Of a stretch of DNA of 64,000 nucleotides, positions 520 through 64,000 are shown piece by piece (the stretch's first letter is position 1; each line of letters starts with the position of its first letter). A program made the position numbers and the translations under genes. Source of the stretch: an uncultured delta proteobacterium (GTDB lineage Bacteria > Desulfobacterota > Desulfobulbia > Desulfobulbales > Desulfocapsaceae); NCBI GenBank assembly GCA_963709755.1, contig CAVPXO010000012.1:213952-277951 (forward strand), read 5' to 3'. The notes under the pieces were generated by a model. That model saw only the letters and a program-made list of their open reading frames with translations, did not search any database and was not told the origin of the DNA.

Positions 520-1182
520 ATGAAACTTATCATTGGAAATAAAAATTATTCATCCTGGTCACTACGGGCATGGCTGCTGCTCGCCGTAAGTGATATCCCG
601 TTTGACGAAGTGAGAATCGCATTGTCTACGGAAACTACAGCCTCTGAAATAGCAAAATATTCAGAGGCCGGCATGGTGCCCATCCTGCAGGATAAAGATC
701 TCATTATTTGGGATTCTCTTGCAATATGCGAGTATGTCTCGGAACAATACCTGAATGGCAAAGGTTGGCCGGCTGATGCAAAAGATAGAGCACTGGCGAG
801 GTCATACTGCGCGGAAATGCACTCAGGTTTTTTTGATCTTCGCCAAGCAATGCCGATGAATTGCAGAGCAGCAAATCGCAGAGTGCCTGTAACGACTGGT
901 TTAGAGGAAGATATCTCCCGCATTGATAGTATCTGGACTGGTTTAAGAGCAAAACATGCCAATAACGGCCCCTGGCTTTTTGGTGAATTTTCCATTGCGG
1001 ATTGCATGTTTGCCCCGGTTGTTTTTCGGTTAGCTACCTACAATGTGGCGGTGTCTGAGAGTTCTGCAGGCTATATAAAGAATGTATTGGGTAATCGAAA
1101 GATTCAGCTTTGGCTGGATCAGGCAAAAAAAGAAGTGGAAATAATAGAGGATGACGAAGCAGGAAGAGAGCAGGTCATTTAA
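520..1182 (+). CDS. Glutathione S-transferase family protein
   Basis: MKLIIGNKNYSSWSLRAWL, VPIL, WDSLAICEY and FSIADCMFAP motifs; ATG at 520 preferred over the track start at 496. Confidence 0.9.
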   Translation: MKLIIGNKNYSSWSLRAWLLLAVSDIPFDEVRIALSTETTASEIAKYSEAGMVPILQDKDLIIWDSLAICEYVSEQYLNGKGWPADAKDRALARSYCAEMHSGFFDLRQAMPMNCRAANRRVPVTTGLEEDISRIDSIWTGLRAKHANNGPWLFGEFSIADCMFAPVVFRLATYNVAVSESSAGYIKNVLGNRKIQLWLDQAKKEVEIIEDDEAGREQVI

Positions 1183-1188
1183 CCGAGC

Positions 1189-1229
1189 CGCTGATCCTCA
1201 TGCATAGGGCAGGAGGATCAGCGAAAAAA
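1189..1229 (-). terminator. Intrinsic terminator between convergent GST and glutaredoxin genes
   Basis: CGCTGATCCT / AGGATCAGCG 10-bp inverted repeat followed by A6, giving a U-run on the minus strand. Confidence 0.6.
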
Positions 1230-1261
1230 CTTTCCTTATTGTAATACAAACAAGGTCCAAA

Positions 1262-1510
1262 TCAGGAATTTCGAAATTTATTTTCCATATATGCAATGAT
1301 ATCATCACTCTCATACATGAAAATCTCTCCGTCTATTAAAAAAGGAACCATGGTATCACCACCTACACGCAACACCACTTTTGCTCCCGGTGTTCCCGGT
1401 GCGGCATCTATCACTTTGAAATCCTTTCCTTCTTTCAGCCCCATTTTGCCCACTGCAGCCATTACTTTTTGGCAAAACGGGCAACGATCATTCAAATAAA
1501 GTTCAATCAT
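1262..1510 (-). CDS. Glutaredoxin / GST-N-type thioredoxin-fold protein
   Basis: 82 aa with a CPFC active site, VPFL cis-Pro motif and MYESDDII. Confidence 0.8.
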   Translation of the reverse strand: MIELYLNDRCPFCQKVMAAVGKMGLKEGKDFKVIDAAPGTPGAKVVLRVGGDTMVPFLIDGEIFMYESDDIIAYMENKFRNS

Positions 1511-1544
1511 AAAATTACCAATTATTAGTTAAGGTTATATAGCT

Positions 1545-2315
1545 TTATTCTCGAACACCTATTCCTTTCTTAAGCAGGTACAGAGTGAATGAAAAAAGTA
1601 ACACGGCAAACATTACCAGCATGCCGAGTCCCATCCAGACATTAATGTCCGTAACTCCCAGAAAGCCATAACGGAATCCATTTATCATATAGACAACGGG
1701 ATTAGCCTTTGAGAGCGTCTGCCAAAAATCCGGGAGCAGAGAAATTGAATAAAAAACGCCGCCGAGATAGGTCAGCGGTGTGATGACAAAAGTTGGTATA
1801 ATTGAGATATCATCAAATGATTTTGCAAAGATACCATTGATCATTCCGGCAAGTGAGAAAACGAAACTGGTGAGAAATGCGAAGAGAACAATAAAGAAAA
1901 CATTAAAGAGAGGCAGTCTGACAAACACAATACTCACTATTGAAGCTAGCATCCCCACGCAAAGCCCACGCGTCATCCCCCCTGTGGTATAACCAAGAAT
2001 CACCACCCATTCCGGTGTTGGGCTGACTAACAATTCTTCAATGTTATGTTGAAATTTGGTGCTGAAAAAACTGGAGACAGTATTGGAGTAGGAATTTGTG
2101 ATTATGGACATCATGATCAACCCCGGAGCGATGAATGCCATATAATCATATCCTCCGATTTCGCTGAGTTGAGAACCGATAAAACCCCCGAAGATGATAA
2201 AATAGAGGCTGATGGTAATAACAGGTGGCACGAGGGTCTGAACCCATATCCGGAAGATCCGTATCAACTCTTTGCGGGCAATCGTCGCAAATGAGATCCA
2301 ATTTCTTTTCATCAC
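1545..2315 (-). CDS. yadH: ABC-2 type transporter permease, YadH-like
   Basis: KELIRIFRIWVQTLVPPVIT, PGLIMMSIITNSYSN, LTYLGGVFYSI and NPVVYMINGFRYGFLG match the YadH family; 4-bp overlap with the ATPase gene. Confidence 0.85.
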   Translation of the reverse strand: MMKRNWISFATIARKELIRIFRIWVQTLVPPVITISLYFIIFGGFIGSQLSEIGGYDYMAFIAPGLIMMSIITNSYSNTVSSFFSTKFQHNIEELLVSPTPEWVVILGYTTGGMTRGLCVGMLASIVSIVFVRLPLFNVFFIVLFAFLTSFVFSLAGMINGIFAKSFDDISIIPTFVITPLTYLGGVFYSISLLPDFWQTLSKANPVVYMINGFRYGFLGVTDINVWMGLGMLVMFAVLLFSFTLYLLKKGIGVRE

Positions 2316-3217
2316 TCCACCAATTCCATAAAAAGCTCTTCAAGCCGATTTGTCTTATTCCGCATACTGCCGACAACGATACCCTGGCTGTTCAGATGGT
2401 CGAAAATGCGGTTCATTGATTGGGAATTATTTTTGGTAACCGCAATTGTTGTTTCATCCACAAGGGTGAATTCTGTGTTTTCAAGTGGCAGGATTTCTGT
2501 CACGGGGCCTATTGTATCGAACAGAAATGACTCTTTATTGAGTTTGCGAAGGAGCTTCCGCTTGCTGGTATTTTCGACAATTTTACCGTTGGCGATAATG
2601 GCGATTTGATTGCAGAGTTGTTCCGCTTCTTCAAGGTAATGGGTGGTTAGAATGATTGTCCTGCCCTGAGCATTCAATTCCAGAAGAAAGTCCCACATGC
2701 CCCTGCGCATCTCCACATCCACTCCTGCGGTGGGTTCATCAAGAATGAGCAATTTGGGTTCATGGACAAGGCCACGGGCAATCATCAGTCTGCGCTTCAT
2801 TCCTCCGGAAAGCTCACGGGCAACTACATTTCGTTTTTCCCATAGCCCCAGTTTTATGAGATACTTTTTGGAGCGAATCAAGGCTTCTTTGCGGGCAATG
2901 CCATAATAACCGGCCTGCTGGGTAACAATATCCTGTACTTTCTCAAAGATTGAGAAATTCTGCTCCTGCGGAACTACACCGATCAAACGTTTTGCAGCCG
3001 GAAAATCCTGATCGATATCAACACCGAAAACGCTCACCTTGCCTGCTGTTTTTGTGACAAGGGAAGTGATAATACCAATCGTCGTGGTTTTACCGGCACC
3101 GTTAGGGCCAAGCAGACCAAAGAAATCTCCTTCCCGCACGTCCAGTGTAACACCGCTGAGTGCTTCGAGCCCACCAGCATACTTCTTGTGGAGATCAGCA
3201 ATAGACAAGGCAAACAT
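2312..3217 (-). CDS. yadG: ABC transporter ATP-binding protein, YadG-like
   Basis: Walker A GPNGAGKTT, signature LSGGMKRR, Walker B LILDEPT, C-terminal NRLEELF. Confidence 0.88.
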   Translation of the reverse strand: MFALSIADLHKKYAGGLEALSGVTLDVREGDFFGLLGPNGAGKTTTIGIITSLVTKTAGKVSVFGVDIDQDFPAAKRLIGVVPQEQNFSIFEKVQDIVTQQAGYYGIARKEALIRSKKYLIKLGLWEKRNVVARELSGGMKRRLMIARGLVHEPKLLILDEPTAGVDVEMRRGMWDFLLELNAQGRTIILTTHYLEEAEQLCNQIAIIANGKIVENTSKRKLLRKLNKESFLFDTIGPVTEILPLENTEFTLVDETTIAVTKNNSQSMNRIFDHLNSQGIVVGSMRNKTNRLEELFMELVE

Positions 3218-3235
3218 TCTGTAATCACCTTCAGT

Positions 3236-4114
3236 TTACTGACTAAGTTTCACAAAGTAGTCAACGATTTCCTCTGACAATTTTCTGCCCTCAAGTTCGG
3301 ATATCTGAACAATACCCGTCGGACAGGTTATATTAATTTCAGTAAGTTGTTCATCGATCAGGTCGAGTCCGGTAAAATGGATGCCATGTTTTAACAGCCA
3401 GGGCCCCACTTCGGAAATGATCTTCTGTTCTCTGGTGGTGAGTTCAGTCTGCAACGCATCACTCCTGGCAAAATTGGCGTGGTACCCTTGCTTGGGCCTT
3501 CGCATGACGGCACCGAGAAACCTGTCACCAAGCATCATTACCCGTTTGTCGCCTTTAGAGATATTCCCGATAAATTTCTGCACCATAACAGGATACTTAC
3601 CTCCACTGGTAAAAGAAGTAACCGTTGAGTGGTCTGATGGTTCTATCTTTTGTACAGATTTACCCTGAAAACTGTCAAGGGATTTAATAACGCTTGTGCC
3701 CTGGACGGCCAAAAAATCTCCTATGATTTCAACATCCGAGCTTACCAGGGTCGGTGGCATGTATTCTACAAAAGGAAGAGCAATCAGCTTTTCATTGAAA
3801 TCACGAAGCGACGACGGACTGTTAACAACAAGTGTTTCGGCAAGGGAAAGCAGCTGTGTCGCATAATGAAAAGCCATGTCGTATGGCGGTTCTTTACGCA
3901 TCAATATCAGCGAGTAATCACCAAGCGCTTTTACCTGTTGCTTTCCGGAATGGTCTGTAGCAATTACCGCCGCATAGGTCTCAAAAAAAAGATTTTCGAT
4001 TGTTGCAGTGTCTACTGTAATTCCGTTATTCCTTGCCTGATGGATAATGGCAAGTGATGTATCCGTTCGTGACACCAGCCCCTCAATTGGATCGAGCACA
4101 ACGAGCCATTTCAC
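3236..4114 (-). CDS. gshB: Glutathione synthetase-like ATP-grasp ligase
   Basis: LDPI..TDTS, LMRKEPPYD, NSPSSLRDFNEKL, GDKRV and GLDLI..LTEINITCPTG align with GshB; both Gly-rich loops are atypical. Confidence 0.8.
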   Translation of the reverse strand: MKWLVVLDPIEGLVSRTDTSLAIIHQARNNGITVDTATIENLFFETYAAVIATDHSGKQQVKALGDYSLILMRKEPPYDMAFHYATQLLSLAETLVVNSPSSLRDFNEKLIALPFVEYMPPTLVSSDVEIIGDFLAVQGTSVIKSLDSFQGKSVQKIEPSDHSTVTSFTSGGKYPVMVQKFIGNISKGDKRVMMLGDRFLGAVMRRPKQGYHANFARSDALQTELTTREQKIISEVGPWLLKHGIHFTGLDLIDEQLTEINITCPTGIVQISELEGRKLSEEIVDYFVKLSQ

Positions 4115-4183: not shown

Positions 4184-4849
4184 CTATTTTTTCACCTTTC
4201 TCTGCTGGAATTTTTTTTGGTGTTTCGCTTGCCGAACCGATTTACTGGCAACAGAATAGCCAAAGGTTCCAATAGGATGCCGGGAAAGAGCAAAATATTC
4301 GCCATGACAATAAGCTAACAGTCCGGCCTGTCCCATCCGAATAGTACCATTTTTATCAATAAGCGATTTTTCAACTTTATTTCCGATAATTTCAGCTATA
4401 AAAAGATCATGGCTCCCCAGTTCAGTGACGGAACGTACCTTACATTCCAGAACGACCGGGCTCTTTTTCAGAGAAGGGACCGCAACATCGGTTCCGGGTT
4501 CCAGCTCCATACCGAAATGTTTTATCTTGTCAACTTTTCGTCCTGAACGACAGCCGCAGAAATCGGTCATTTTGACCATCTCTTGAGTGGTAAGATTGAT
4601 GACAAACTCACCGGTTGCACTGATATTCTCATGGGATAATCGCTCTTTTCGTACCGCGATTGTCACCAGTGGAGGATGGCTGCAGGCAACTCCGGTCCAG
4701 CCTACAGTAAAGATGTTGGGTTTGCCTTCCTTGTCAATTGTCGTCACCAGAACCGCAGGTACGGGTCCGAACATGATGGAACCTTTAAAGAGTTCTTTTG
4801 TCACAGTTTTCTGCTCCGTTTCCCAAGGTTTCATAAACGACATCGACAA
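4184..4849 (-). CDS. Flavin reductase family protein (DIM6/NTAB-like)
   Basis: PVPAVLVTT, NIFTVGWTG, GEFVINL, LECKV..ELGSHDLFIAEI. Confidence 0.85.
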   Translation of the reverse strand: MSMSFMKPWETEQKTVTKELFKGSIMFGPVPAVLVTTIDKEGKPNIFTVGWTGVACSHPPLVTIAVRKERLSHENISATGEFVINLTTQEMVKMTDFCGCRSGRKVDKIKHFGMELEPGTDVAVPSLKKSPVVLECKVRSVTELGSHDLFIAEIIGNKVEKSLIDKNGTIRMGQAGLLAYCHGEYFALSRHPIGTFGYSVASKSVRQAKHQKKFQQRKVKK

Positions 4850-5522
4850 TCATTTCCGGTTGCCTTGAGGCGGCTACTGCCAGTTGGTCACAACGCTCAT
4901 TGAGCTCGTTTCCGGCATGTCCCTTCACCCAGTTAAAGCTGACATCTACACCTTCCATTAGTTCGAGCAGCTCTTGCCAGAGATCGATGTTCAGGACAGG
5001 TTGGCCATCACTCTTTCGCCACCCTTTGCTCCGCCACCTCCTGGCCCACCCTTTGGTGATGCCATTGACAAGGTAGCTTGAATCCGAATAGAGATAAATC
5101 TTTTTCCCGCAATTCTGAAGTTCCCGCAAGGCAACGATTGCCGCCATCATCTCCATCCGGTTATTTGTGGTGAACCGAAACCCGCCACTCAACTCCCGAC
5201 GCTCGCCGTTCATTTCAATGAGGACACCATACCCACCAGGACCGGGATTATTAATACTTCCCCCATCGGTAAATACAATAATGGCATCCGAATCATTTTG
5301 TAACTGCGGTGATGGAAGTCCCTCCCCTTGACGATCATTTTTTTTGCCTTCTTTCTTCTGATAGATCGGGTTTTCCAACCACGCTTCAGCTTCAGCTCTG
5401 GTTGGAAAACTTTTAAATTTTGCAGCGGCAAATCCTTTGACCTGTTTTTCCGCAGTTGCCCAGTCAGTATATATTCCAGAGCTGCGGCCTACTGCAACCG
5501 CATAGAACTTCTTTTGTGCCAT
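4785..5522 (-). CDS. rnhA: Ribonuclease HI with N-terminal hybrid-binding (caulimovirus viroplasmin-like) domain
   Basis: KKFYAVAVGRSSGIY..W..KSF N-terminal domain; FTDGG..NPGPGG, TTNNRMEM, SDSSY and WVKGHAGNELNERCD catalytic motifs. Confidence 0.92.
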   Translation of the reverse strand: MAQKKFYAVAVGRSSGIYTDWATAEKQVKGFAAAKFKSFPTRAEAEAWLENPIYQKKEGKKNDRQGEGLPSPQLQNDSDAIIVFTDGGSINNPGPGGYGVLIEMNGERRELSGGFRFTTNNRMEMMAAIVALRELQNCGKKIYLYSDSSYLVNGITKGWARRWRSKGWRKSDGQPVLNIDLWQELLELMEGVDVSFNWVKGHAGNELNERCDQLAVAASRQPEMIVDVVYETLGNGAENCDKRTL

Positions 5523-26898: not shown

Positions 26899-28687
26899 GT
26901 GCGATTTTTGAAGCCGACAAATACAAAAGACCCTGAATATTTTCACAAAGTCATTGATTGTCAATATGCCTGTCCGTCCCACACTCCGGTACCGGAATAT
27001 ATCCGATTGATCAGCCAGGGCAAATACGATGAGGCATTCAAGATCAACTGGATTTCCAACGTCTTTCCCGGTATCCTTGGCCGTGTCTGCGACCGGCCAT
27101 GTGAGCCGGCCTGCCGGAGAACCCGGGTCGAGGAAACTCCTGTCGCCATCTGCCGGTTGAAAAGAGTCACCTCAGACTACCGAAGCGACAGCACTGACTT
27201 TCTCCCGGAGATCCCAAGTGAGAAAAACGGCAAAAGGATCGCGCTCATTGGTGGCGGCCCAGCCTCCCTCACGGTAGCCCGTGACCTGCTGCCCCTCGGC
27301 TACGAGGTGGACCTTTATGATGACCAGTCCAAGGCCGGCGGATTTATACGTACCCAGGTGCCCTCCTTTCGGCTGCCTGAGAAAGTGCTCAACGAAGAGG
27401 TTGATCGGATTTTGAACATGGGCGTTACGGTCCATTTCAATCACTATGTCGACAGCCTTAAAACGATTGTCGACAAGGGCTACGACGCTATTTTTGTCGG
27501 CACCGGCGCCCCCCGTGGCCGGGACCTCCCTGACCTTCCCGGCAGAAAGGAAGGCGATGCATCGATTTTTATCGGTATCGAGTGGCTCGCCGCGGTTTTA
27601 TATCGCCACGTAATCTCAACCCCGGAAAAAGTTCTGGTGCTCGGCGGCGGCAACACAGCCATGGACTGTTGCCGGATGGCCAGAAGGCTTGGCGGAGAAG
27701 ACGTCAAGGTCATTGTCCGCAGCCCCCGAGTCCGACATGAAGGCGTCTCCCTGGGAAATTGAAGATGCCGAAGAGGAAGGTATTCCCATTATTGACAACC
27801 ATTCACCTGTTGATTTTGTTGTCAAAGACGGCCAGTTAACGGGTATGCACTTCCAAAAGATGATTGCCGAATACGACGAGAACAACAAACGTAAACTGCT
27901 GCCCGCCGATGAACCGCCGGTCTTCATCGCCTGCGACCAGGTACTCCTTGCTGTCGGCCAATTAAACGCCTTTCCTTTTATCAAGCAGGATATTGGCATC
28001 AAGATGAATAAGTGGGGCCTTCCCGAGCTTGATGAAAAAACGTTTCAATCGTCAGTACCTCATATATTTTTTGGTGGCGACGCTGCTTTTGGTCCCAAAA
28101 ATATAATTACCGCGGTTGAACATGGACACCAGGCAGCAATCTCCATCGATCTCTTCTGCCGGGGTGAGGATCTCCACAATCGCCCTGGGCCGCGAACCAA
28201 TTTATTCAACCAGAAAATGGGGATGCAGGACTGGATTTATGACAGCCATGTTTCCGACGATAAACGCTATGCGGTTCCCACGGTTGACCGGGTAAAATCA
28301 CTTAAAAACAGATTGGTGGAAGTTGAACTGGGATTTAGTAAAAAAACAGGTCACGAGGAGTCACTGCGCTGTTTGAATTGTGATGTTCAGACCGTTTTTG
28401 ATTATTCCACCTGCATAGAATGTGACGCCTGCGTCGATATCTGTCCGGAATTTTGCATTAATTTTACTGACAATGGCGATGAAGAGGATCTCAGATCCAG
28501 ATTGTTGGCTCCGGCCGACAATAAAGAGCAGGCTCTTTACATCTCCCCGGTCCTGCCTACCGGCAGGGTCATGGTCAAAGATGAAAATGTCTGTCTGCAC
28601 TGCGGTCTCTGTGCCGAACGCTGTCCAACCTCGTCCTGGGAAATGATTCAATACACCTATAATTCTGCAGTGGCAGGTCAAAAATGA
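26899..28687 (+). CDS. FAD/NAD(P)-dependent Fe-S oxidoreductase (GltD/SudA-like) with C-terminal 2x[4Fe-4S] domain; split by one frameshift
   Basis: ORF 26899-27762 (CQYACP, GRVCDRPCEPAC, GGGPAS, GGGNTAMD) continues in ORF 27689-28687 (GGDAAFG, CLNC, CIECDAC, CLHCGLC); removing one C from the run at 27723-27727 joins them as VRSPESDMKASPWE. Confidence 0.85.
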
Positions 28688-55136: not shown

Positions 55137-58100
55137 TCACTGATTTGAAGGATGCAGTGATCCTTTGCTCTCTATTTTTGTCAGCTCAATGTTTTTTTCC
55201 GCATTTCCTTTCATCCTGTTTTCCCGGATGCCGCAATACAACACCGGCACTATCAACATGGTCACAATCTCCAGGCTCATGCCTCCCAAGGTCGGGATGG
55301 CCATGGGCACCATAATATCCGATCCACTTCCGGTGGACGTCAGGATCGGGAGCAGGGCCAGCACTGTGGTGGCAGTAGTCATCAAACAGGGCCGCACCCG
55401 CCGCAGGCAGGCCTCGATAGTAGCATGGCGAATCTCCTGGACCGTGGCTGTCTTCCTTTCAGCAAAGGCACCATTTAGGTACGTTGCCATGACCACCCCG
55501 TCATCCGAGGCAATACCGAAAAGGGCCAGGAATCCCACCCATACAGCCACGCTCAAATTAATCGGGTGGACCTGAAACACATCCCGCATTGAGGTTCCAA
55601 AGACACTGAAATCAAGAAACCAGGGCTGACCATACAACCAGATCATGATAAAGCCGCCGGCCCAGGCAACGGCCACTCCGGAAAAGACCAGGACACTGGT
55701 TGAAACGGATTTAAATTGCAGATAGAGTATGATGAAGATAATCAAAAGAGCCAGTGGCAGGATTAAACTCAGCTTTTTGTCAGCCCGCACCTGGTTTACA
55801 TAATTCCCGGTAAAAGTAAAGCTGACGCCGGCCGGTAGCTGCAGCTCGCCGTTGTCGATTTTCTCCAGGAGATAGTCCCGTGCCTCCTCAACCACGTTGG
55901 TTTCAGCCCTGTCTGCTTTTTTGTCGAAGAGCACATAGCCGACAAGAAATGTATTCTCACTTTTTATCATCTGGGGACCGGCCACAGACCGCAGGTCGGC
56001 CAACTGCACCAGGGGTATCTGGGTACCATTCGGGGCAGGTACCATCACTTTGCCTATGTTATCGAGGTTATCCCGTAGTTCGCGCATGTATCTGACGCGC
56101 ACAGGGTATCGTTCCCGCCCCTCAACGGTGGTAGTGATCTGTTTGCCGCCGATCGCAATTTCGATAACATCCTGTACCTGCTGCAAGTCAATTCCGTACT
56201 GGGCGATGGCACGCCGGTCGATGTCGATCTCCAGATACGGCTTGCTGACAATCTGATCGGCAATTACCGACAGGGGATCGACCGAGGGAACTTCCCGGAT
56301 ATATTTTTCGATGCGACGCGTCACCTCTTCGATGGTTTGCAAATCAGGACCGTAGACCTTAATCCCCATATTTGCCCGGATACCGCTTTGCAGCATCACC
56401 ATACGCGCCGAGATGGGCTGAAGCTTTGGTGCCACCGTTGTCCCCGGAATGGATGCCCCCTTGACGATTTCTCGCCAGATGTCATCCGGTTGCACGATAC
56501 CTGCCCAGGCTTTGCGGCCTTGATTGATGTCGGTATCCAAGGCCGGACGCCACAATCGGAAGGGGCAGCCCTGGTCGTCGGGGATCAGTTTGTTGTCACT
56601 GTCTCGTTCAAACTTTCCACGAACATGGTACGGTTTGCCATCCGGGGCAGGGAGGGGGTAGCCTCGCTCATCACGGAAAAAATCAAGCTCGTCCGGGGTG
56701 AAACGAAACTGTACGGGTCGCCCTTTGGCATTCAGTCGAAACTCGGGTGCGTAATTAATGAGGGTCTCGATCATAGAGATAGGAGCCGGATCAAGTGGAC
56801 TTTCAACCCTTCCCAGTTTGCCCACCGCCGATTCCACCTCAGGTATCGCCTGGATCGCGCGATCCTGCCGCTGCAGGATGTCAAGCACCTCACCGATGGA
56901 GGCATGGGGCATGGTCACCGGCATATACAGGTAAGCACCCTCATCCAGCGGCGGCATAAATTCCTTGCCTATGCCGGGAAATTTTTCGGTCAGATAGATA
57001 AACGGCGTGGAGTTGGTAACCAGCCGGGGCAGCCAGCCGAAAATGGTGCCGTACCCTTGCCAGATCATACCGCCAAACAGCACCGCCAACAGCGGCAGGG
57101 CCAGAAAAAGAGCTTTGTGCTCCAGGCACCACCCCAATATCCTTGGATAAAAGCGATGAAACAATCCAAAGGCGGCGATAACCCCGCCAATGAGCAGCCC
57201 AACAAAAATAAAATTATGCACGATCCCCTTCTCAGCTCCCAGGGGCTGCCAGGATCGGGTCAAAACCAATGTCACCGCCAGCACAATGAGGCCGCTGGTC
57301 AACAGTCGCACCCTGCGTGCGGACTCCGCTGGAAGCCGCAGTATCAGAAGGTTACAGCCGCCAATGACGGCTACGAAGAGGCCCACCTGCCAATCCAACA
57401 CGAACGCCAGCACTCCCCCAAGATAAATCAATCCTTCGTAAAAAATCCAACCGTGTTGTTGGCGGCCGGCTTTGCGGTTGAACAGGGCATGGGCCAGGGG
57501 TGGTATAACACACAGGGCGATGATCAGTGAGGCCAGCAGGGTAAAGGTTTTGGTAAACGCCAGCGGTCTGAAGAGTTTTCCTTCGGCCGCCACCATGGTA
57601 AATACCGGCAGGAAACTGACGATGGTGGTGGATACAGCCGTCAGGACAGCCCCGCCCACCTCGCTTGCCGCCCGCACAACAACAGCCGTGCGATCTTCCT
57701 GTGGTGTGGCCTGGGCCAGACGGCGCATAATATTTTCGGTCAGGATGATGCCCATGTCGACAATGGTCCCGATGGCAATGGCGATCCCCGAAAGGGCAAC
57801 GATGTTGGCATCCACTCCGAAGATCTTCATGGCGATAAAACAGAGCAGTACCGCGAGCGGCAGCAGCCCTGAAATTATAATCGAGCTCCCCAGGTGCGCC
57901 ATCATCACGATTACCACAATGATGGTGACCAGCATTTCCTTGGAGAGGGCAGAACTGAGTGTGTTGAGGGTTTCCTGGATCAGATCGGTACGGTCATAGA
58001 AGGGAACGATTTTTACCTGGCTGAGCGTGCCGTCGGCCAGGGTTCTTTTGGGCAGCCCCAGCGCTATTTCATCAATTTTCTTTTTAACCCGGCTGATTAC

Positions 58101-59087
58101 CTCCAGCGGGTTCTCGCCGTAGCGCACAACCACAACTCCGCCGACCGCTTCCATGCCGCCTTTGTCCAGAGCGCCCCGCCGTGAGGCAGGCCCCATGGTC
58201 ACATTGGCCACATCCCCTACCAGCACGGGAGTTGCCCCTTCCAGCTTGATAGAGGAATCGCGAATATTGTCGAGAGATTTGATAAACCCCAGACCTCGGA
58301 TAACGTATTCGACCTTATTGATCTCAATCGTGCGCGCCCCTACGTCAACATTGGCCCGACGCACGGCGCTCACCACTTGGGCCAGACTGATGTTGTGATA
58401 CCTTAAGAGGTCCGGGTCTACATCGATCTGGTATTCCGCCACAAACCCACCGACCGAGCCCACTTCGCTGACGCCCGGCACCGACATCAGAGCATAGCGC
58501 ACATACCAGTCCTGGATACTGCGTAACTCGTGCAAGTCCCAGCCACCTGCAGGATTTCCGTCGGAGCCGATACCTTCCAGGGTGTACCAGAACACCTGGC
58601 CCAGGGCCGTGGCATCCGGTCCCAGGGTTGGCTTGACCCCTTCGGGTAACTCGCGGGCCGGCAAACTGTTGAGATTCTCCAGCACCCGTGTCCGGGCCCA
58701 GTAAAAATCGACGCCATCCTCGAAGATGACGTACACCAGGGAAAACCCGAACATCGAGTAACTGCGGATGGTCTTCACCCCGGGGACGCCCAGCAGGGAT
58801 GCCGAGAGCGGATAGGTGATCTGGTCTTCGATGTCCTGGGGAGAACGGCCGGTCCATTCAGAAAAGACGATCTGCTGGTTTTCGCCAATGTCGGGGATGG
58901 CATCCACCGGCACCGGATCGCGCCACATCCCGCCGAGCTGCCAGTCAAACGGGGCCACTACCAGTCCCCAGCCAATCAGGATAACGACTGCCAGAAAAAC
59001 GATCATCCGGTTTAGCATACAGAAGCGGATGATGGTTCCGAGCCAGGAGGATGTGGAGTGAGGTTGCGGATTAAAATCTTCAGTCAT
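55137..59087 (-). CDS. cusA: CusA/CzcA family heavy-metal RND transporter, long form
   Basis: VDAIPDIGENQ, QITYPL, GATPV..VVVRYGENP, GIAIAIGTIVD, EFMPPLDEG, RPCLMT, MAIPTLGG. Confidence 0.9.
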   Translation of the reverse strand: MTEDFNPQPHSTSSWLGTIIRFCMLNRMIVFLAVVILIGWGLVVAPFDWQLGGMWRDPVPVDAIPDIGENQQIVFSEWTGRSPQDIEDQITYPLSASLLGVPGVKTIRSYSMFGFSLVYVIFEDGVDFYWARTRVLENLNSLPARELPEGVKPTLGPDATALGQVFWYTLEGIGSDGNPAGGWDLHELRSIQDWYVRYALMSVPGVSEVGSVGGFVAEYQIDVDPDLLRYHNISLAQVVSAVRRANVDVGARTIEINKVEYVIRGLGFIKSLDNIRDSSIKLEGATPVLVGDVANVTMGPASRRGALDKGGMEAVGGVVVVRYGENPLEVISRVKKKIDEIALGLPKRTLADGTLSQVKIVPFYDRTDLIQETLNTLSSALSKEMLVTIIVVIVMMAHLGSSIIISGLLPLAVLLCFIAMKIFGVDANIVALSGIAIAIGTIVDMGIILTENIMRRLAQATPQEDRTAVVVRAASEVGGAVLTAVSTTIVSFLPVFTMVAAEGKLFRPLAFTKTFTLLASLIIALCVIPPLAHALFNRKAGRQQHGWIFYEGLIYLGGVLAFVLDWQVGLFVAVIGGCNLLILRLPAESARRVRLLTSGLIVLAVTLVLTRSWQPLGAEKGIVHNFIFVGLLIGGVIAAFGLFHRFYPRILGWCLEHKALFLALPLLAVLFGGMIWQGYGTIFGWLPRLVTNSTPFIYLTEKFPGIGKEFMPPLDEGAYLYMPVTMPHASIGEVLDILQRQDRAIQAIPEVESAVGKLGRVESPLDPAPISMIETLINYAPEFRLNAKGRPVQFRFTPDELDFFRDERGYPLPAPDGKPYHVRGKFERDSDNKLIPDDQGCPFRLWRPALDTDINQGRKAWAGIVQPDDIWREIVKGASIPGTTVAPKLQPISARMVMLQSGIRANMGIKVYGPDLQTIEEVTRRIEKYIREVPSVDPLSVIADQIVSKPYLEIDIDRRAIAQYGIDLQQVQDVIEIAIGGKQITTTVEGRERYPVRVRYMRELRDNLDNIGKVMVPAPNGTQIPLVQLADLRSVAGPQMIKSENTFLVGYVLFDKKADRAETNVVEEARDYLLEKIDNGELQLPAGVSFTFTGNYVNQVRADKKLSLILPLALLIIFIILYLQFKSVSTSVLVFSGVAVAWAGGFIMIWLYGQPWFLDFSVFGTSMRDVFQVHPINLSVAVWVGFLALFGIASDDGVVMATYLNGAFAERKTATVQEIRHATIEACLRRVRPCLMTTATTVLALLPILTSTGSGSDIMVPMAIPTLGGMSLEIVTMLIVPVLYCGIRENRMKGNAEKNIELTKIESKGSLHPSNQ

Positions 59088-59149
59088 GGTTGATTAGCAT
59101 AGTATGATGTTGAGAGCGAATAGCGTCGGTTTCCTTCCTGTTTTGCTCT

Positions 59150-60759
59150 TCACTGTTTCGTCTGCTGCGGCGCCATTTCCATATCCATCTTCATGCCTGA
59201 GATTTCACTTTCAAGGTCCTGCATCGCTTCACCGCCTACATGAGTCATCATGCTGGTCCCGGCCAGGATCTGGATTGCGCTATCAATCTTAAAATTCCCG
59301 TTAACCACAACCTTTTCGCCTTCCCGCAACCCTTCCCGCACCACGTAATACCCCTTGGCCCTGGGACCCAGAAGCACTACCCGGCCTTCATACGTCCCGG
59401 GTTCGCCCGCCACCTCCACATAGACTACTGCCCGTTTACCGGTGATCATCGGAGCGGTCTCAGGTATCGTCAGCGTCTTGTTCTGCTCCGCGCTCTGTCT
59501 GCTGTCCACCCTGTATCCCGGTATCAAGGAAGCATGCATCGTACCGCGGACCAGCATCCCCGGCTTTAATTTTCCCTGATGAGCGGAACAGAGAACCCCT
59601 ACCTTGAATGTATGCGTTTTATCATCAAAATCAGGATCAAGGTATATCACTTCACCTGTGAAGATCTCGCCCGGATAGGCATCTGAGCGAAATTCGGCTT
59701 TCTGGCCAAGCTTGATCCAGGGAAAATCTGATTCGAAGGCGTCAAACATCGCCCACACATATCGAGGGTCAGCGATGGTGAAGACAGAATCCCCGGTGTT
59801 CAGGTACATGCTTTTAAACGCATCCTGTTTCTGAACAATGCCGGGAATTGGTGTCAATTCCGTTCGGATACCGGTTGGCCATCCCCGGCTGATGATCCCG
59901 TCGACCTCGGCTTCAGTAAGCCCCAGCGATCCTATTTCACGTCGGATTCTGACGACCTCGGCCGTGATTGCCTGTTCCTCTTCCGCAGCTTATCTCCTGT
60001 TCCTTGTCAGCTTTGGCCGGCTGCACCACAGAAGGCCCCGGTCGGCCCCGCCTCACAGGGGGTGGACCGCTGGGCTTCCACATCCACGGCTGGACCCACT
60101 GCTTGAAACGTTGTCCTACTGCCGGCCGGTTTGCAACAAAGCCGGGAAGTTTTTCGAGGGTCGCAAACAGCTCCTGCTCCAGAAAATAAAGATCTACCGA
60201 ATACAGATCAAACAGGGCGTCGCCGGTTTTAACAGTCTCTCCTGCACGTTTGACGTAGATTTCATCGATCACCCCCGGCGCAAACGCAGTCACCTTGTAC
60301 TGGTAGGCGGGGTCATACTCAACCCTGCCGAACAGCCGGACCTCCGCGGAAACCGCCCTTTTTTCCACCGTTGCGACCTGAATTCCGGCGGCCTTGACAC
60401 CCTCTTCGGTAAGATGCAGCCTGGACGAACCTTCTTCATGCCGGTGTCCCTGAGCCTCCGCCGCCACCAGATCCATGCCGCACACCGGGCACTTGCCTGG
60501 CTGTTCCATGGGAGGCACGCAATTCATCGGGCAGACGTAGACTGTTGTCCTCTTTTGGCATCGCAGGTGGAGGCTGGGTACCCTGATCCTCATTGCCTGG
60601 TTGCATAATGCCGGACATGGGATGTTCGTCCGCTACCGGATGACTCGCCTCCGAATTATCGCCGTGCATGGTATAACCGATGCTGATGCCGACCATTACT
60701 GCCGCCAGAATCATAAGCAGAATTTTTTTTGAACCCAGATATTTCTTTATTTTTTCCAT
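59150..60759 (-). CDS. cusB: CusB-like RND periplasmic adaptor with heavy-metal-binding domain; two frameshifts
   Basis: Pieces 60759-~60570 (TM), ~60570-59990 (CPMNC..PGKCPVCGMDL) and ~59990-59150 (IAD...GEK VVVNGNFKIDS, Met-rich tail) join with indels near 60555-60590 and ~59990. Confidence 0.8.
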
Positions 60760-60870
60760 GGCCTCTAGTGCATCAATGAATTGCGGGAAGGGAATCAAAC
60801 ATCAGGCATCCACTACGATGAAAAAGCCCCTGCCGGCATCCTTGGCTTTTTGCCTGTCAAGATGCCGCAT

Positions 60871-60899
60871 ATTGTAATCCAAGGTTTTTTCAAATGCAA
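60871..60899 (-). promoter_or_regulatory. Putative sigma-70 promoter of the cusB-cusA-nosL operon
   Basis: Minus strand reads TTGCAT-N17-TACAAT. Confidence 0.4.
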
Positions 60900-61139
60900 T
60901 TTTATAATAATATCAGTGAAAAGCATTCGATTCAGTGATCATCTTAAAAAACCACAGGCCGCCTGAACGAAACAATATAATGCGGTTCTATGCTTGAACC
61001 ATAAGCCGCGGTGGGGATAGGCAGATAAATAAGCGCCAGTATCATGACAAGTCGGCCAGTATCCGGCAGCTGCAACACCATTAAGCGACAAAGGGAGAGA
61101 AACCGAAGTCCCTCTCCCTTGTTTATAAAGAGCTTTGTA

Positions 61140-61170
61140 AAAATAACGGGGAAGGGATTATTCCCTCCCC
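61140..61170 (-). terminator. Terminator after the multicopper oxidase gene
   Basis: GGGGAGGGA-ATAA-TCCCTTCCCC followed by GTTATTTTT on the minus strand; second hairpin AAGGGAGAG/CTCTCCCTT at 61091-61120. Confidence 0.55.
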
Positions 61171-61192
61171 CATCAAACCACTTCCTCCATAG

Positions 61193-64000
61193 TTAGTTTC
61201 GTGTCACCGTCACCGGTGTCGGCGCCGGAGTCCAGGCACTGGAGCCAAGGATATTATTGGCCCTGACCTGCATGTAGACAGAAGTTCCCGCGGTACCACC
61301 CACATTGATCTGCTGAACTCGAGGTGACACCGTTAACCTGAGTTGCCGGAGCCATTGTCGAGCTGTTTGACCAGAGGATGCTGTAGCTGGACGCACCAGG
61401 CACGGCGAGTCCAGTTCAGACCCGCTGTCCTTTGTCCGCCGCGTGTGCCATTGGCCGCAGTAACGTCAGACGGAGCTGCCGGAAGGGCCATGGCTATGGA
61501 CGCCGAAGTTGCGAAGGCCGACAGCCCCCCGCCGTTTACCGCCGCTACCCGGTAAATATAGCTGTTACCAAGCACCACGGTTGGGTCAGAAAAGCTCACA
61601 CTCCCGGTATTGTTGCGAGCCGGGGCTGTGCCGATCTGGGTGAAGGTCGCACCGCTGTCCGAGGGAACGTTCGATGACAAACCCGTTCTCGTTGGTGGCG
61701 TTGTCCTGCCAGGTCAGGTTGACCCGCGGCCCTGCCGCTATAATGGCAGTCAGGGAGGTCGGCGCTGCTGGAAGTTGGCCGTTGCCGCTGAGTACGGAGC
61801 TGGACACAGACTGCGCGCTCACACTCATAAACTCGCCTCCGTAGCCCACTGTGTTGACCGCTGCCACACGATAGCCGTAGACTGTGTTGCCAATACCACT
61901 GTCGGTCAGGGTAAGGGCGTTACCCGCTGTGTTCGGCACGGCGAGCAGCTGCAGGACAGGTGTGCCGACATTCGTCCAGTTAATACTGTCCGCGGACCGC
62001 TGCAGCTGGAAAGACGTTTCTGTCAGGGAGTTGTCGGTGAAGGACACATTTACCCTGTTGCCTTTTCCTGCAGTAAGTGTTCCGATTATCGGCTCTTTCG
62101 GCGGCAACGCCACGGAAACAGGCCGCATCATATCCATCTCCTCATGGCTGAGGATATGGCAGTGCCACACGTACTCCAAACCATAGTTGACGAGCTGGTT
62201 TTCGATCGGAGCGGTAGGATTACCGGCGGCATCGACGTTATTGAAGCCCATTAATGACCCAAGCGGCATCATCGGATGCAGCGGCCGAACGCTGTTGGGC
62301 AGCTCCCATGGCAGATCAGGAATGATTGGCCTGAGGGCCACGATCGTGTCCTCCAGCGGGCTCACCCGCAGCGTATCTTTCCAGCCGAGTTCGGTTGGAT
62401 CCGGCGGGCTGATGATATTATCCCAGGTTACCCGGTTGAGCACCTGCACATCGTAGAGATGCCAGTGGAGCGGATGAGTGTCCACACCATTATGGGTGAT
62501 CTTCCAGATCTGTGTCCCGTCCGCCGAGCTGATCGGGCTGATAGGTTTCATAGTCGTGATATTATTCTTTGGCAGATTGGTAGCATCGAACATCTCCGTC
62601 GGTGGGTTGACAAACGGGTAAAGAATGATGTTCTGAGCCGCCGGTGTGGCCGGCACGGCCTCAACACCGATATTTGCCGACATTCTGCCGAACTCGTCGA
62701 AAGCTGAGGCGTTCATCTCGTCATGAATTGCCTTCGGTTCGATCATAATCTCCAGCTTGCCTGCCGGATCCAGCAGGGTGTTAAAGCCGAACAGGGTTCC
62801 GCCCTGGTTGTTGATGCGGAGATGGCCGTCACAAACGGTGCTGGTGCTGCCGCCGTTGCAGTCGCCACTTGCGGAAAAGTTCGTGCCGTATGCCGAGTTG
62901 TACTCTGCCTGCCCAACAATGATCGGATGCTGTGCGGATTCGAATACTCCAGAACCGTCCGCCTTGTGTTTGAATGCATTCTTGAAGTAGCGCTCAGGTT
63001 GAAAGCAGATGCCGCGGTGTTCCCGCAACCTTCACCTGCATGACCGTGCGGGTGTTGGGGCCGTAGCCGGGCAGGATTGAAGGTGCACCTACCGGGGTCA
63101 GATCCGGGGCGCCGGTATAGTAATCATAGCTAGCAACCCTTGCCGGAAATGCAGCAGGGGCGTCATTATAAAGAATAAGCGTCTGGCCGGCAAACTTCGA
63201 GAAGTCGACAATTACGTCGAACCGCTCGGCGGGTGCCACCAGCAGCGAATGTTGATCGACGTTGCCGACGTTAAAGACGGTCGGGTCGATGATCCATGTG
63301 GTCGGCTGGGCCGGAACAACGACCGGGGCCGGCAGGAAGCCGCCCTCGGAACCGATAACGATCCAGTCAGGACCGGCCGGGCTGACGCTGGTGTCCGGCG
63401 TCGGGAAAATATTCGGGTCAAGCTGGGCGGCTGCCAGCTCAGCGGGATTAAGTGCTACCTCAGTGGGTCCGATCGCCACATCGGTTTCACTATTCGGATC
63501 AGCCACATACCAGGAGAAGTTGAAGAACCGGTCGTTGGCCGCGTTCAGGATGCGCAGTCGATAAGCCTTGGGCTCCACCGTGGTGGTGGGGTAGGCCGTG
63601 CCGTTGACGATGGGCGTATCGTTGAACTGCTCCATACCCACGGAGATATTCGGCGTACCGGGGATTTTCTCCGGCTCACAGAAGGGGTCGGTCTCGTATT
63701 GCCAGGTGGTAGGATCGTTGATGTTGCAGGCAGCGCCAATGGTGTCTGCCAACATCTGTATGTCGGATCATATTATAATACGGATTGGCAATCGGTCCGT
63801 ACGGTGGTGTTGCCGGTGGCCAGAACCACGGTCCGTACATCCAGCGGCCGAAGGGGCTCATGCCCGTTGCGTCGCCAGGATTCTGGGCCGGCATATAGAC
63901 ATGATGATACCAGAAATTGCCCATGCCACCCCAGCTTGCGGTATCCCAGGTCGGGTCCTGCCAGTCCAGCTGGTCGGTGCCCGGCACAAAGGTCCGGTCT
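61193..64000 (-). CDS. OmpB/MofA-type multicopper oxidase with C-terminal fibronectin type III repeats; 5' end outside the window, several frameshifts
   Basis: DRTFVP, YRLRILNAANDRF, APAERFDVIVDF, HPLHWH and WHCHILSHEEMDM copper motifs; Fn3 patterns W.DN..NE.GF.IERS and Y.YRVAAVN spread over ORFs 63676-63987, 62994-63755, 61586-63028, 61333-61680 and 61193-61396. Confidence 0.82.

What the first reader, a model, noticed from the sequence alone, without database searches (positions are those of the whole stretch)
520..4114. Glutathione-themed locus: gshB-like, YadG/YadH ABC-2 pair, glutaredoxin and GST
The gshB-like gene, yadG, yadH and a CPFC glutaredoxin form a tight minus-strand run (gaps of 18 bp, -4 bp and 34 bp) converging on a GST. 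Glutathione metabolism is typical of aerobic Proteobacteria and cyanobacteria, not sulfate-reducer lineages, and YadGH has no established substrate. From memory, to be verified, P. aeruginosa PA2811-PA2813 also places yadH/yadG beside a GST. The inference is that YadGH exports glutathione or its conjugates and that this anaerobe has a compact thiol detoxification module. No gshA is in the window.
Basis: partly seen in the sequence, partly recalled or inferred. Interest (0 to 1): 0.68.

Follow-up and report, generated by a model that had tools for sequence, protein, structure and literature searches.

The report
Glutathione-type ligase, YadGH pump, glutaredoxin cassette
A sulfate-reducer relative carries a conserved four-gene block (glutathione-synthetase-like ligase, YadG/YadH ABC pump, small glutaredoxin) that in other anaerobes and tiny archaea sits behind a glutamate-cysteine ligase gene, which ties the orphan YadGH pump to glutathione, although this lineage lacks that partner gene nearby and has an altered ligase.

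Summary
GST (520-1182, +) converges on a minus-strand run of a CPFC glutaredoxin-like gene, yadH, yadG and a GshB-family ligase, with gaps of 34, -4 and 18 bp.

- **Conservation:** the four-gene core is conserved in Desulfocapsaceae. 23 of 24 loci have yadGH after the ligase gene. The GST is only an occasional neighbour.
- **No general link:** 0 of 70 other yadGH loci, mostly Gammaproteobacteria, carry GST, Grx, GshB or GshA nearby.
- **A lineage-specific link:** the window's YadH belongs to a separate, well-supported YadH clade. Other members of that clade sit in gshA(PF08886)-gshB-yadG-yadH operons followed by a GST or the same small Grx. One example is a Woesearchaeota contig.
- **What differs here:** the Desulfocapsaceae version never has gshA next to it (0 of 25 loci). 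Its ligase scores below NCBI's GshB cut-offs and has lost the otherwise invariant Gly-Gly of the catalytic lid.

The most likely reading is a module that makes, exports and uses a thiol. Whether the product is glutathione and whether YadGH carries it are both untested. I could not search a whole genome for gshA.

The parts
3236..4114 (-). GshB-family ATP-grasp ligase, 292 aa. It belongs to a divergent subfamily with small loop KSLDSFQGK, and its big lid loop lacks Gly-Gly.
   Evidence: Pfam GSH-S_N 4.7e-20 and GSH-S_ATP 8.7e-40. NF003573 scores 235 bits against a cut-off of 272, and TIGR01380 scores 226 against 299. Best solved relative is E. coli GshB 1GSA, by sequence 1.8e-34 and by fold 1.9e-17. 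Catalytic residues are conserved but the loops are altered.
2312..3217 (-). yadG, the ABC ATPase subunit, 301 aa.
   Evidence: ABC_tran 9.5e-30 and drrA-type subfamily. phmmer 1e-114 to E. coli YadG. Overlaps yadH by 4 bp.
1545..2315 (-). yadH, the ABC-2 permease subunit, 256 aa.
   Evidence: NF011648 at 388 bits, cut-off 225. 57% identity to E. coli YadH. Member of the gshB-linked YadH clade, with bootstrap 60/60 for the split from the other sampled YadH.
1262..1510 (-). Small glutaredoxin-like thioredoxin-fold protein, 82 aa, with CPFC at residues 10-13.
   Evidence: GST_N_3 1.2e-10. Weak Grx2/GrxB/Grx3 matches. In 21 distinct homologue sequences (23 ORFs) the C-P-x-C, GG, VPF and MYES-DI motifs are at least 90% conserved. 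Present within 2.5 kb downstream in 17 of 22 Desulfocapsaceae-type loci and in group B loci.
1190..1222 (.). Inverted repeat (10-bp stem, 13-nt loop) in the 79-bp gap between the convergent stop codons. It could be a terminator hairpin but has no canonical T tail.
   Evidence: Read directly from the sequence. The consensus terminator scan did not call it.
520..1182 (+). Glutathione S-transferase family protein, 220 aa. A convergent neighbour that is variable between genomes.
   Evidence: GST_N_2/GST_N/GST_N_3 and GST_C_2. NF011693 scores only 70 bits against a cut-off of 150. Closest solved structures are GST 4MP4, SspA and YfcF. Orthologue is adjacent in L157, about 2 kb beyond the grx-like gene (4.2 kb from the ligase gene) in L001/L002, and absent from the other loci.

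Best explanation
The locus is a lineage-conserved, probably co-transcribed module for a glutathione-type thiol. A GshB-family ATP-grasp ligase adds the last residue to a gamma-glutamyl-cysteine-type precursor. The YadG/YadH ABC-2 transporter moves that thiol, its disulfide or its conjugates out of the cytoplasm. The small CPxC glutaredoxin, and where present the GST, use the thiol for disulfide reduction and conjugation. The module descends from a gshA-gshB-yadG-yadH-(grx or GST) operon that survives in other anaerobes and in DPANN archaea. In Desulfocapsaceae the gshA gene is no longer in the block. Shown here: gene identities, order, spacing, conservation, intact catalytic residues, and the separate gshB-linked YadH clade. 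Inferred: co-transcription, the product of the ligase, the cargo and direction of YadGH, and the source of gamma-glutamyl-cysteine.
For: Tight same-strand spacing, with no excess of promoter or terminator motifs inside the run. The cassette is conserved in 23 of 24 Desulfocapsaceae-type loci, with the grx-like gene in 17 of 22. Sister GshB sequences (45-48% identity, same KSLDS[FY]QG small loop) overlap a PF08886 GshA gene in 18 of 18 loci with upstream flank. Five of 20 of those are followed by yadGH plus a GST (L108; also the Woesearchaeota locus L017) or the 81-aa Grx (L111, L114, L167). Cassette-linked YadH form one clade apart from the other YadH sampled, with bootstrap 60/60. The ATP-grasp and acyl-phosphate residues are all conserved: R86, K125, K160, R210, R225, N235, D273, E281, N283 in E. 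coli numbering. E. coli GshB is the best structural match by nine orders of magnitude. In P. aeruginosa a GST and an ABC-2 pair form one MexT-induced operon (PMC2794183). On an Enterococcus plasmid yadGH lies inside an arsenic and heavy-metal resistance island.
Against: No gshA in the 64-kb window, and none next to the ligase gene in 25 of 25 Desulfocapsaceae-type loci. No Desulfo-named protein appears among the best 120 PF08886 homologues. The ligase is below both NCBIfam GshB cut-offs. It lacks the Gly-Gly of the lid loop, where G239 is invariant in 130 canonical representatives, and the Gly-rich small loop. None of 70 other yadGH loci has glutathione genes nearby, and neither do three alpha- and betaproteobacterial loci. 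The only published YadGH phenotype is weak macrolide efflux. No RNA data exist for this organism.
Confidence: 0.45

Rival explanations
1. Neofunctionalised ligase. After gshA left the operon in the Desulfocapsaceae ancestor, the GshB-type enzyme changed substrate and now makes something other than glutathione, such as another thiol peptide or gamma-glutamyl compound. YadGH exports that product.
For: There is a perfect split in the sample. Every GshB with an adjacent gshA keeps the lid Gly-Gly. Every Desulfocapsaceae-type sequence (34 distinct) lacks both it and an adjacent gshA, and has two one-residue deletions in the lid. The remodelled lid is itself strongly conserved, F/Y-H-A-N-F-A-x-S-D/E-A-L. 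Scores are below the equivalog cut-offs, and NCBI names the relatives only 'ATP-grasp domain-containing' or 'hypothetical'.
Against: The gamma-Glu-Cys-side and acyl-phosphate residues are unchanged. The Grx-like partner and an occasional GST are retained. The pattern reflects one evolutionary event, so the correlation has a sample size of one. gshA may simply lie elsewhere in the genome, which I could not check.
Confidence: 0.25
2. Stress island without a shared substrate. YadGH is a general or housekeeping exporter, for example of hydrophobic xenobiotics as in E. coli. It sits beside thiol genes only because all respond to the same electrophile or oxidant stress.
For: E. coli YadGH gives MarA-dependent macrolide tolerance in an acrB mutant (PMC13462070). 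YadH is about 56-60% identical across Desulfobacterota, Gammaproteobacteria, Listeria and Enterococcus, which points to a cargo common to all. Neighbours elsewhere are unrelated housekeeping genes such as methyltransferase, flavoprotein, queF and panC.
Against: In the linked clade yadG follows gshB within 2 to 21 bp or overlaps it, in a single same-strand run starting at gshA. This looks like one operon rather than a loose island. The linkage persists across bacteria and archaea.
Confidence: 0.2
3. The adjacency is accidental and carries no functional meaning.
For: The GST is a variable neighbour. One Desulfocapsaceae-type locus (L132) has the ligase gene without yadGH.
Against: The order is conserved in 23 of 24 loci at 70-93% protein identity and in distant lineages.
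Confidence: 0.03

Closest known systems
Prokaryotic glutathione synthetase GshB (E. coli, PDB 1GSA; EC 6.3.2.3)
   Same: Same two Pfam domains, same ATP-grasp fold and the same catalytic Arg, Lys, Asp, Glu and Asn residues. Sister sequences are translationally coupled to a glutamate-cysteine ligase gene.
   Different: 34% identity, 24 residues shorter, and below the NCBIfam equivalog cut-offs. The small loop is S-F-Q-G instead of G-x-G-G. The lid loop is two residues shorter and lacks the invariant Gly-Gly. No adjacent gshA.
E. coli YadG/YadH ABC-2 transporter
   Same: 57% (YadH) identity, the same two-gene overlapping arrangement, and no adaptor or binding-protein gene.
   Different: The E. 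coli pair lies between can and yadI/panD with no thiol genes. The window's pair belongs to a separate clade that is physically linked to gshB.
P. aeruginosa PA2813-PA2812-PA2811 (GST, ABC ATPase, ABC-2 permease; MexT regulon)
   Same: A GST and an ABC-2 pair in one stress-induced operon (PMC2794183).
   Different: It has no ligase and no Grx. I did not test whether PA2811/PA2812 are orthologues of YadH/YadG, because no Pseudomonas sequence was available in the tools.
CydDC of E. coli and eukaryotic MRP/Ycf1 'GS-X pumps' (named from my own knowledge)
   Same: These are ABC exporters of glutathione, cysteine or glutathione conjugates, which is the proposed working model.
   Different: A different ABC architecture (fused type-IV exporters versus a split ABC-2 pair), with no homology beyond the ATPase domain. 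This is a functional analogy only.
PF08886-type gshA-gshB gene pairs (Acidithiobacillus-type glutamate-cysteine ligase)
   Same: Relatives of the window's ligase sit directly behind this gshA type.
   Different: The window and all Desulfocapsaceae-type loci lack it at that position.

Membership tests
GshB, prokaryotic glutathione synthetase | N-terminal GSH-S_N and ATP-grasp GSH-S_ATP domains | tested here: met
   PF02951 4.7e-20 and PF02955 8.7e-40. Best fold match is 1GSA.
GshB, prokaryotic glutathione synthetase | Score above the curated equivalog cut-offs (NF003573, TIGR01380) | tested here: not met
   235 bits against 272, and 226 against 299.
GshB, prokaryotic glutathione synthetase | Conserved ATP, Mg and acyl-phosphate residues (E. 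coli R86, K125, K160, R210, R225, N235, D273, E281, N283) | tested here: met
   All identical in the window protein and its clade.
GshB, prokaryotic glutathione synthetase | Gly-rich small loop (G164-G167) and Gly-Gly in the flexible lid (G239-G240), which close over the active site (role stated from my own knowledge) | tested here: not met
   The small loop reads DSFQGK. The lid reads YHANFAR-SDAL without Gly-Gly, while G239 is invariant in 130 canonical representatives.
GshB, prokaryotic glutathione synthetase | A glutamate-cysteine ligase in the same genome to supply gamma-Glu-Cys | tested here: inconclusive
   None in the window or next to the gene in 25 loci. A genome-wide search was not possible. 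Sister clades have gshA adjacent in 18 of 18 loci.
GshB, prokaryotic glutathione synthetase | Catalyses gamma-Glu-Cys + Gly + ATP to GSH | not testable with these tools
   Needs an enzyme assay.
YadGH ABC-2 transporter | YadH-type permease model NF011648 above its cut-off, with high identity to E. coli YadH | tested here: met
   388 bits against 225. 57% identity.
YadGH ABC-2 transporter | Adjacent, overlapping ATPase gene of YadG type | tested here: met
   4-bp overlap. phmmer 1e-114 to E. coli YadG.
Glutaredoxin | Thioredoxin fold with a CPxC active site and a cis-Pro (VP) motif | tested here: met
   CPFC at residues 10-13. C-P-x-C and VPF are at least 90% conserved across 21 distinct homologue sequences (23 ORFs).
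Glutaredoxin | Significant match to a curated glutaredoxin model | tested here: not met
   Only GST_N_3/GST_N_2 pass. All NCBIfam Grx models are far below their cut-offs. The Grx3 match in PDB is 1.7e-4.
Cytosolic GST | GST N-terminal and C-terminal domains | tested here: met
   GST_N_2 1.7e-12 and GST_C_2 3.4e-6.
Cytosolic GST | Assignment to a characterised bacterial class (for example YfcF-type NF011693) | tested here: not met
   70 bits against a cut-off of 150.
Glutathione or GS-conjugate ABC exporters (CydDC, MRP-type) | Homology to those transporters, or demonstrated thiol transport | not tested
   No comparison with CydDC or MRP sequences was run. YadGH is assigned to the ABC-2 type, with separate ATPase and permease genes. 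Transport needs an experiment. I claim only that it may work like these pumps.

The most novel reading that the evidence does not exclude
Desulfocapsaceae, a family of sulfate reducers and sulfur disproportionators, may have converted an inherited glutathione operon into a pathway for a different, still unknown low-molecular-weight thiol or gamma-glutamyl compound. On this reading a GshB-derived ligase with a remodelled lid makes it, without a gshA partner, and the YadGH-type ABC-2 transporter secretes it.
Probability: 0.2. Interest if true: 0.8.

Novelty: new variant of a known kind. Interest (0 to 1): 0.55.

Why it matters
YadGH is widespread and highly conserved: its permease is 56-60% identical between Desulfobacterota, Gammaproteobacteria and Firmicutes. 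Its natural cargo is nevertheless unknown, and two 2026 E. coli papers explicitly ask for it. A YadGH clade embedded in gshA-gshB operons in bacteria and archaea offers a concrete, testable candidate: glutathione, its disulfide or its conjugates. The finding also shows glutathione-type genes in strictly anaerobic lineages and in DPANN archaea, where this thiol is not expected. Finally, it singles out a ligase variant whose product is worth identifying.

Tried and rejected
- **Co-transcription from reads:** not testable. Only three soil DNA metagenome runs hold the sequence, and there are no RNA runs.
- **gshA in Desulfocapsaceae:** the third homologue search, with a PF08886 profile, gave no Desulfo-named hit among the 120 listed of 1614. 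This is not proof of absence.
- **Organism names:** cluster look-ups gave no names for group B proteins.
- **Literature:** no paper in the library links gshB with an ABC-2 or YadGH transporter. The D. sulfexigens genome paper lists five 'glutathione synthases' but says nothing about gshA. A search for residue-level data on the E. coli GshB loops found nothing usable, so the role of the loops rests on my own knowledge.
- **RiPP idea:** I considered a cassette of ATP-grasp ligase plus ABC exporter plus small peptide and rejected it. The ligase matches GshB nine orders of magnitude better than RiPP ATP-grasp ligases, and the small ORF is a conserved thioredoxin-fold protein.
- **Flavin reductase as a member:** rejected. 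Flavin reductase (4184-4849) is 7 kb away from the cassette in L001 and L004.
- **Structure model:** only moderate (pLDDT 73, both loops below 50), so I drew no conclusion about the active site from it.
Full report
**What is in the sequence.** The ORF list places the genes as follows:
- A GST at 520-1182 on the plus strand.
- An 82-aa CPFC protein at 1262-1510 on the minus strand.
- yadH at 1545-2315 on the minus strand.
- yadG at 2312-3217 on the minus strand.
- A 292-aa GshB-like gene at 3236-4114 on the minus strand.

Pfam and NCBIfam confirm the families.

YadH passes the YadH-type model NF011648 (388 bits against a cut-off of 225) and is 57% identical to E. coli YadH. The ligase has both GshB domains but falls below both curated GshB cut-offs (235 against 272 bits, and 226 against 299).

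The small protein matches GST_N_3 and only weakly Grx2/Grx3. Even so, its family keeps C-P-x-C, VPF and an acidic C-terminal motif in 21 distinct homologue sequences (23 ORFs).

A 10-bp-stem inverted repeat at 1190-1222 lies between the two convergent stop codons. Promoter-like and terminator-like motifs inside the run are no more frequent than in shuffled sequence. That fits one transcript but does not prove it, and no RNA run holds this sequence.

**Which organism.** The closest homologues of the ligase and of YadH come from Desulforhopalus, Desulfopila, Desulfocastanea, Desulfofustis and Desulfocapsaceae MAGs. The only runs holding the sequence are soil metagenomes. The window is therefore a Desulfocapsaceae (Desulfobulbales) genome fragment.

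**Conservation of the block.** I collected loci in three ways: look-ups of two homologues, a scan of one genome per species with a YadH alignment, and a metagenome scan with a ligase alignment. After removing duplicates there are 34 distinct Desulfocapsaceae-type ligase genes:
- 23 of 24 with at least 1 kb downstream are followed by yadG and yadH.
- 17 of 22 with at least 2.1 kb downstream have the grx-like gene within 2.5 kb.
- Only 3 of 22 have the window-type GST nearby. It is adjacent in the window and L157, about 2 kb beyond the grx-like gene in L001/L002, and absent in Desulfocastanea catecholica L004.

The conserved unit is therefore ligase-yadG-yadH-grx, and the GST is an occasional neighbour. 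The flavin reductase gene upstream in the window is 7 kb away from the cassette in L001 and L004, so it is not part of the block.

**Is yadGH generally next to glutathione genes? No.** The same genome scan returned 70 yadGH loci outside the cassette clade. Most are Alteromonadales, Vibrionales, Pasteurellales, Orbales and Oceanospirillales.
- None has a GshB, Grx-like or GST ORF within 6 kb, either by phmmer or with a two-class GST profile built here.
- A Pfam survey covered 137 immediate neighbours, taken from these loci plus L017. It lists methyltransferase (23), flavoprotein (15), QueF (9), PanC (6), DPP-IV (6), carbonic anhydrase (5) and Hpt (5). No glutathione family is among the 25 most frequent.
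- E. coli yadGH lies between can and yadI.
- More distant alpha- and betaproteobacterial homologues (36-41% identity) also lack such neighbours.

**A specific YadGH clade is tied to glutathione biosynthesis.** Among the loci from the two scans, several have a 406-415-aa ORF that ends at or overlaps the start of the ligase gene. It is a full-length PF08886 glutamate-cysteine ligase (E about 1e-118 to 1e-121). Two arrangements occur:
- **Group A** (L087-L104, GC 27-32%, including contigs of the LAZR01 marine sediment metagenome): gshA-gshB only.
- **Group B** (L106, L108, L111, L114, L167/L168): gshA-gshB-yadG-yadH in one same-strand run. It is followed by a GST in L108. In L114 and L111 the same 81-aa Grx-like gene follows. 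In L167/L168 that gene comes after an inserted lexA/imuB-like pair.

L017 is a contig labelled Woesearchaeota that also carries A-type ATPase genes. It reads (gshA 3' end)-gshB-yadG-yadH-GST, with a CGFS glutaredoxin two genes further on.

In a neighbour-joining tree of 101 YadH sequences, the YadH linked to gshB, together with one archaeal yadGH locus without gshB (L015), form a single clade. Its split from all other YadH sampled has bootstrap support of 60/60. The linkage therefore looks ancestral to that clade and has moved between bacteria and archaea as a unit.

**The ligase.** A search of 1.8 billion representatives found 416 relatives at E up to 1e-30. The window protein is 33-37% identical to canonical GshB and 45-63% identical to a small set of intermediates.
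- All residues conserved in at least 85% of 130 canonical representatives that serve ATP, Mg and acyl-phosphate chemistry are retained (R86, K125, K160, R210, R225, N235, D273, E281, N283, E. coli numbering).
- **Subfamily signature.** The window protein, groups A and B, and L017 share a small loop K-S-L-D-S-[FY]-Q-G instead of K-P-L-D-G-x-G-G, and T-C-P-T-G instead of T-S-P-T. Because this subfamily is coupled to gshA in 18 of 18 loci with upstream flank, I take it to be a genuine glutathione synthetase lineage.
- **Desulfocapsaceae difference.** The flexible lid is two residues shorter here. It reads [FY]-H-A-N-F-A-x-S-[DE]-A-L, which lacks the Gly-Gly. G239 is invariant in the 130 canonical representatives, and the Gly-Gly is kept in every gshA-coupled sequence.
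- In the same clade gshA is never adjacent (0 of 25). The two changes coincide, but they reflect a single ancestral event.
- The AlphaFold model is moderate (pLDDT 73, both loops below 50). It matches E. coli GshB far better than any other ATP-grasp ligase (1.9e-17 against 4.8e-8).

From my own knowledge, the two E. coli GshB loops close over the active site and protect the acyl-phosphate intermediate. I could not confirm residue-level roles from the library.

**Where is gshA?** It is not in the window. tblastn with six PF08886 sequences found nothing, Pfam on ten unclear ORFs found none, and the rest of the ORFs are recognisable housekeeping genes by eye. A profile search for PF08886 proteins listed Woesearchaeota, Nanoarchaeota, Spirochaetota, Schekmanbacteria, Thiomargarita, Poribacteria and Legionella. 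No Desulfo name appears among the best 120 of 1614. I could not scan a whole Desulfocapsaceae genome or test the other gshA types. This is the main gap.

**Literature.**
I did not test orthology to YadGH.
- E. coli YadGH is MarA-activated and gives four-fold macrolide tolerance only in an acrB mutant. The authors state that its physiological substrate is unknown (PMC13462070 and PMC13585988).
- No paper in the library links gshB to an ABC-2 transporter.

**Conclusion.** The cassette is real and conserved. The best reading (confidence 0.45) is a module that makes, exports and uses a glutathione-type thiol, inherited from a gshA-gshB-yadG-yadH-(grx or GST) operon.

Three rivals remain:
- The Desulfocapsaceae ligase has changed product (0.25).
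- YadGH is merely co-regulated with thiol genes (0.2).
- The adjacency is accidental (0.03).

The cargo of YadGH, the product of the ligase and co-transcription are all inferences. The finding is a new variant of known kinds: glutathione biosynthesis operons and thiol or conjugate ABC exporters. Its value lies in giving an orphan, widely conserved transporter a testable substrate hypothesis.

Noticed in passing
L087-L104 (e.g. L088 4753-6936; L101 from LAZR01001130.1): Low-GC (27-32%) marine-sediment contigs, including the LAZR01 marine sediment metagenome, carry an overlapping PF08886 gshA-gshB pair of the same GshB subfamily. They may be archaeal; the taxon was not determined.
   Followed up: partly
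L017 2-3981; L169 8001-10138: DPANN archaea carry glutathione biosynthesis genes. A Woesearchaeota contig with A-type ATPase genes has gshA(3' end)-gshB-yadG-yadH-GST plus a CGFS glutaredoxin. Another contig, whose GshA is labelled Woesearchaeota by NCBI, has gshA-gshB between ribosomal protein S3Ae and a RIO kinase.
   Followed up: partly
L015 3640-5486: A contig labelled Methanosarcinales, with archaeal-looking ribosomal protein genes downstream (read by eye, not verified), has yadGH without gshB. Its YadG ORF is about 55 residues longer at the N terminus, which may be a start-codon artefact. Its YadH nests inside the gshB-linked clade.
   Followed up: no
L175 (Enterococcus casseliflavus plasmid pFYY063-72K) 703-8455: yadG-yadH sit inside a metal(loid) resistance island: arsR, ACR3 arsB, an FAD-dependent oxidoreductase, then yadGH, then a P-type ATPase and a second ArsR. 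This is compatible with export of a thiol or conjugate, but it is a single case.
   Followed up: no
(plasmid collection; L174): YadH orthologues at about 56% identity occur in Listeria and Enterococcus. From my own knowledge these Firmicutes make glutathione through GshF. A phyletic link between yadGH and glutathione producers deserves a proper test.
   Followed up: no
L132 6001-6882: One Desulfocapsaceae-type locus has the ligase gene alone. It is followed by what look like Na+-NQR genes (read by eye) instead of yadGH.
   Followed up: no
window 4184-4849 versus L001 3320-9627 and L004 3111-9663: In two relatives, about 7 kb lie between the flavin reductase gene and the cassette. This stretch holds a DVU_0533-like gene, a cytochrome c3-like gene, an Fe-S protein, FtsH and a zinc-ribbon protein. 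It is absent from the window.
   Followed up: partly
window 26899-28687: A glutamate-synthase-beta-like or pyridine-nucleotide-disulfide oxidoreductase gene with ferredoxin domains appears split into two ORFs in different frames that overlap by 74 bp (26899-27762 and 27689-28687). This could be a frameshift or an assembly error.
   Followed up: no
window 4785-5522: RNase HI with an N-terminal Cauli_VI (RNase H1 hybrid-binding) domain. Its ORF overlaps the flavin reductase ORF by 65 bp, so one start codon is probably called too far upstream.
   Followed up: no
window 55137-63755: A likely copper or heavy-metal cluster: a 1316-aa RND pump that resembles CusA (read by eye), an adaptor-like ORF and multicopper-oxidase-like ORFs, some of which look fragmented.
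   Followed up: no
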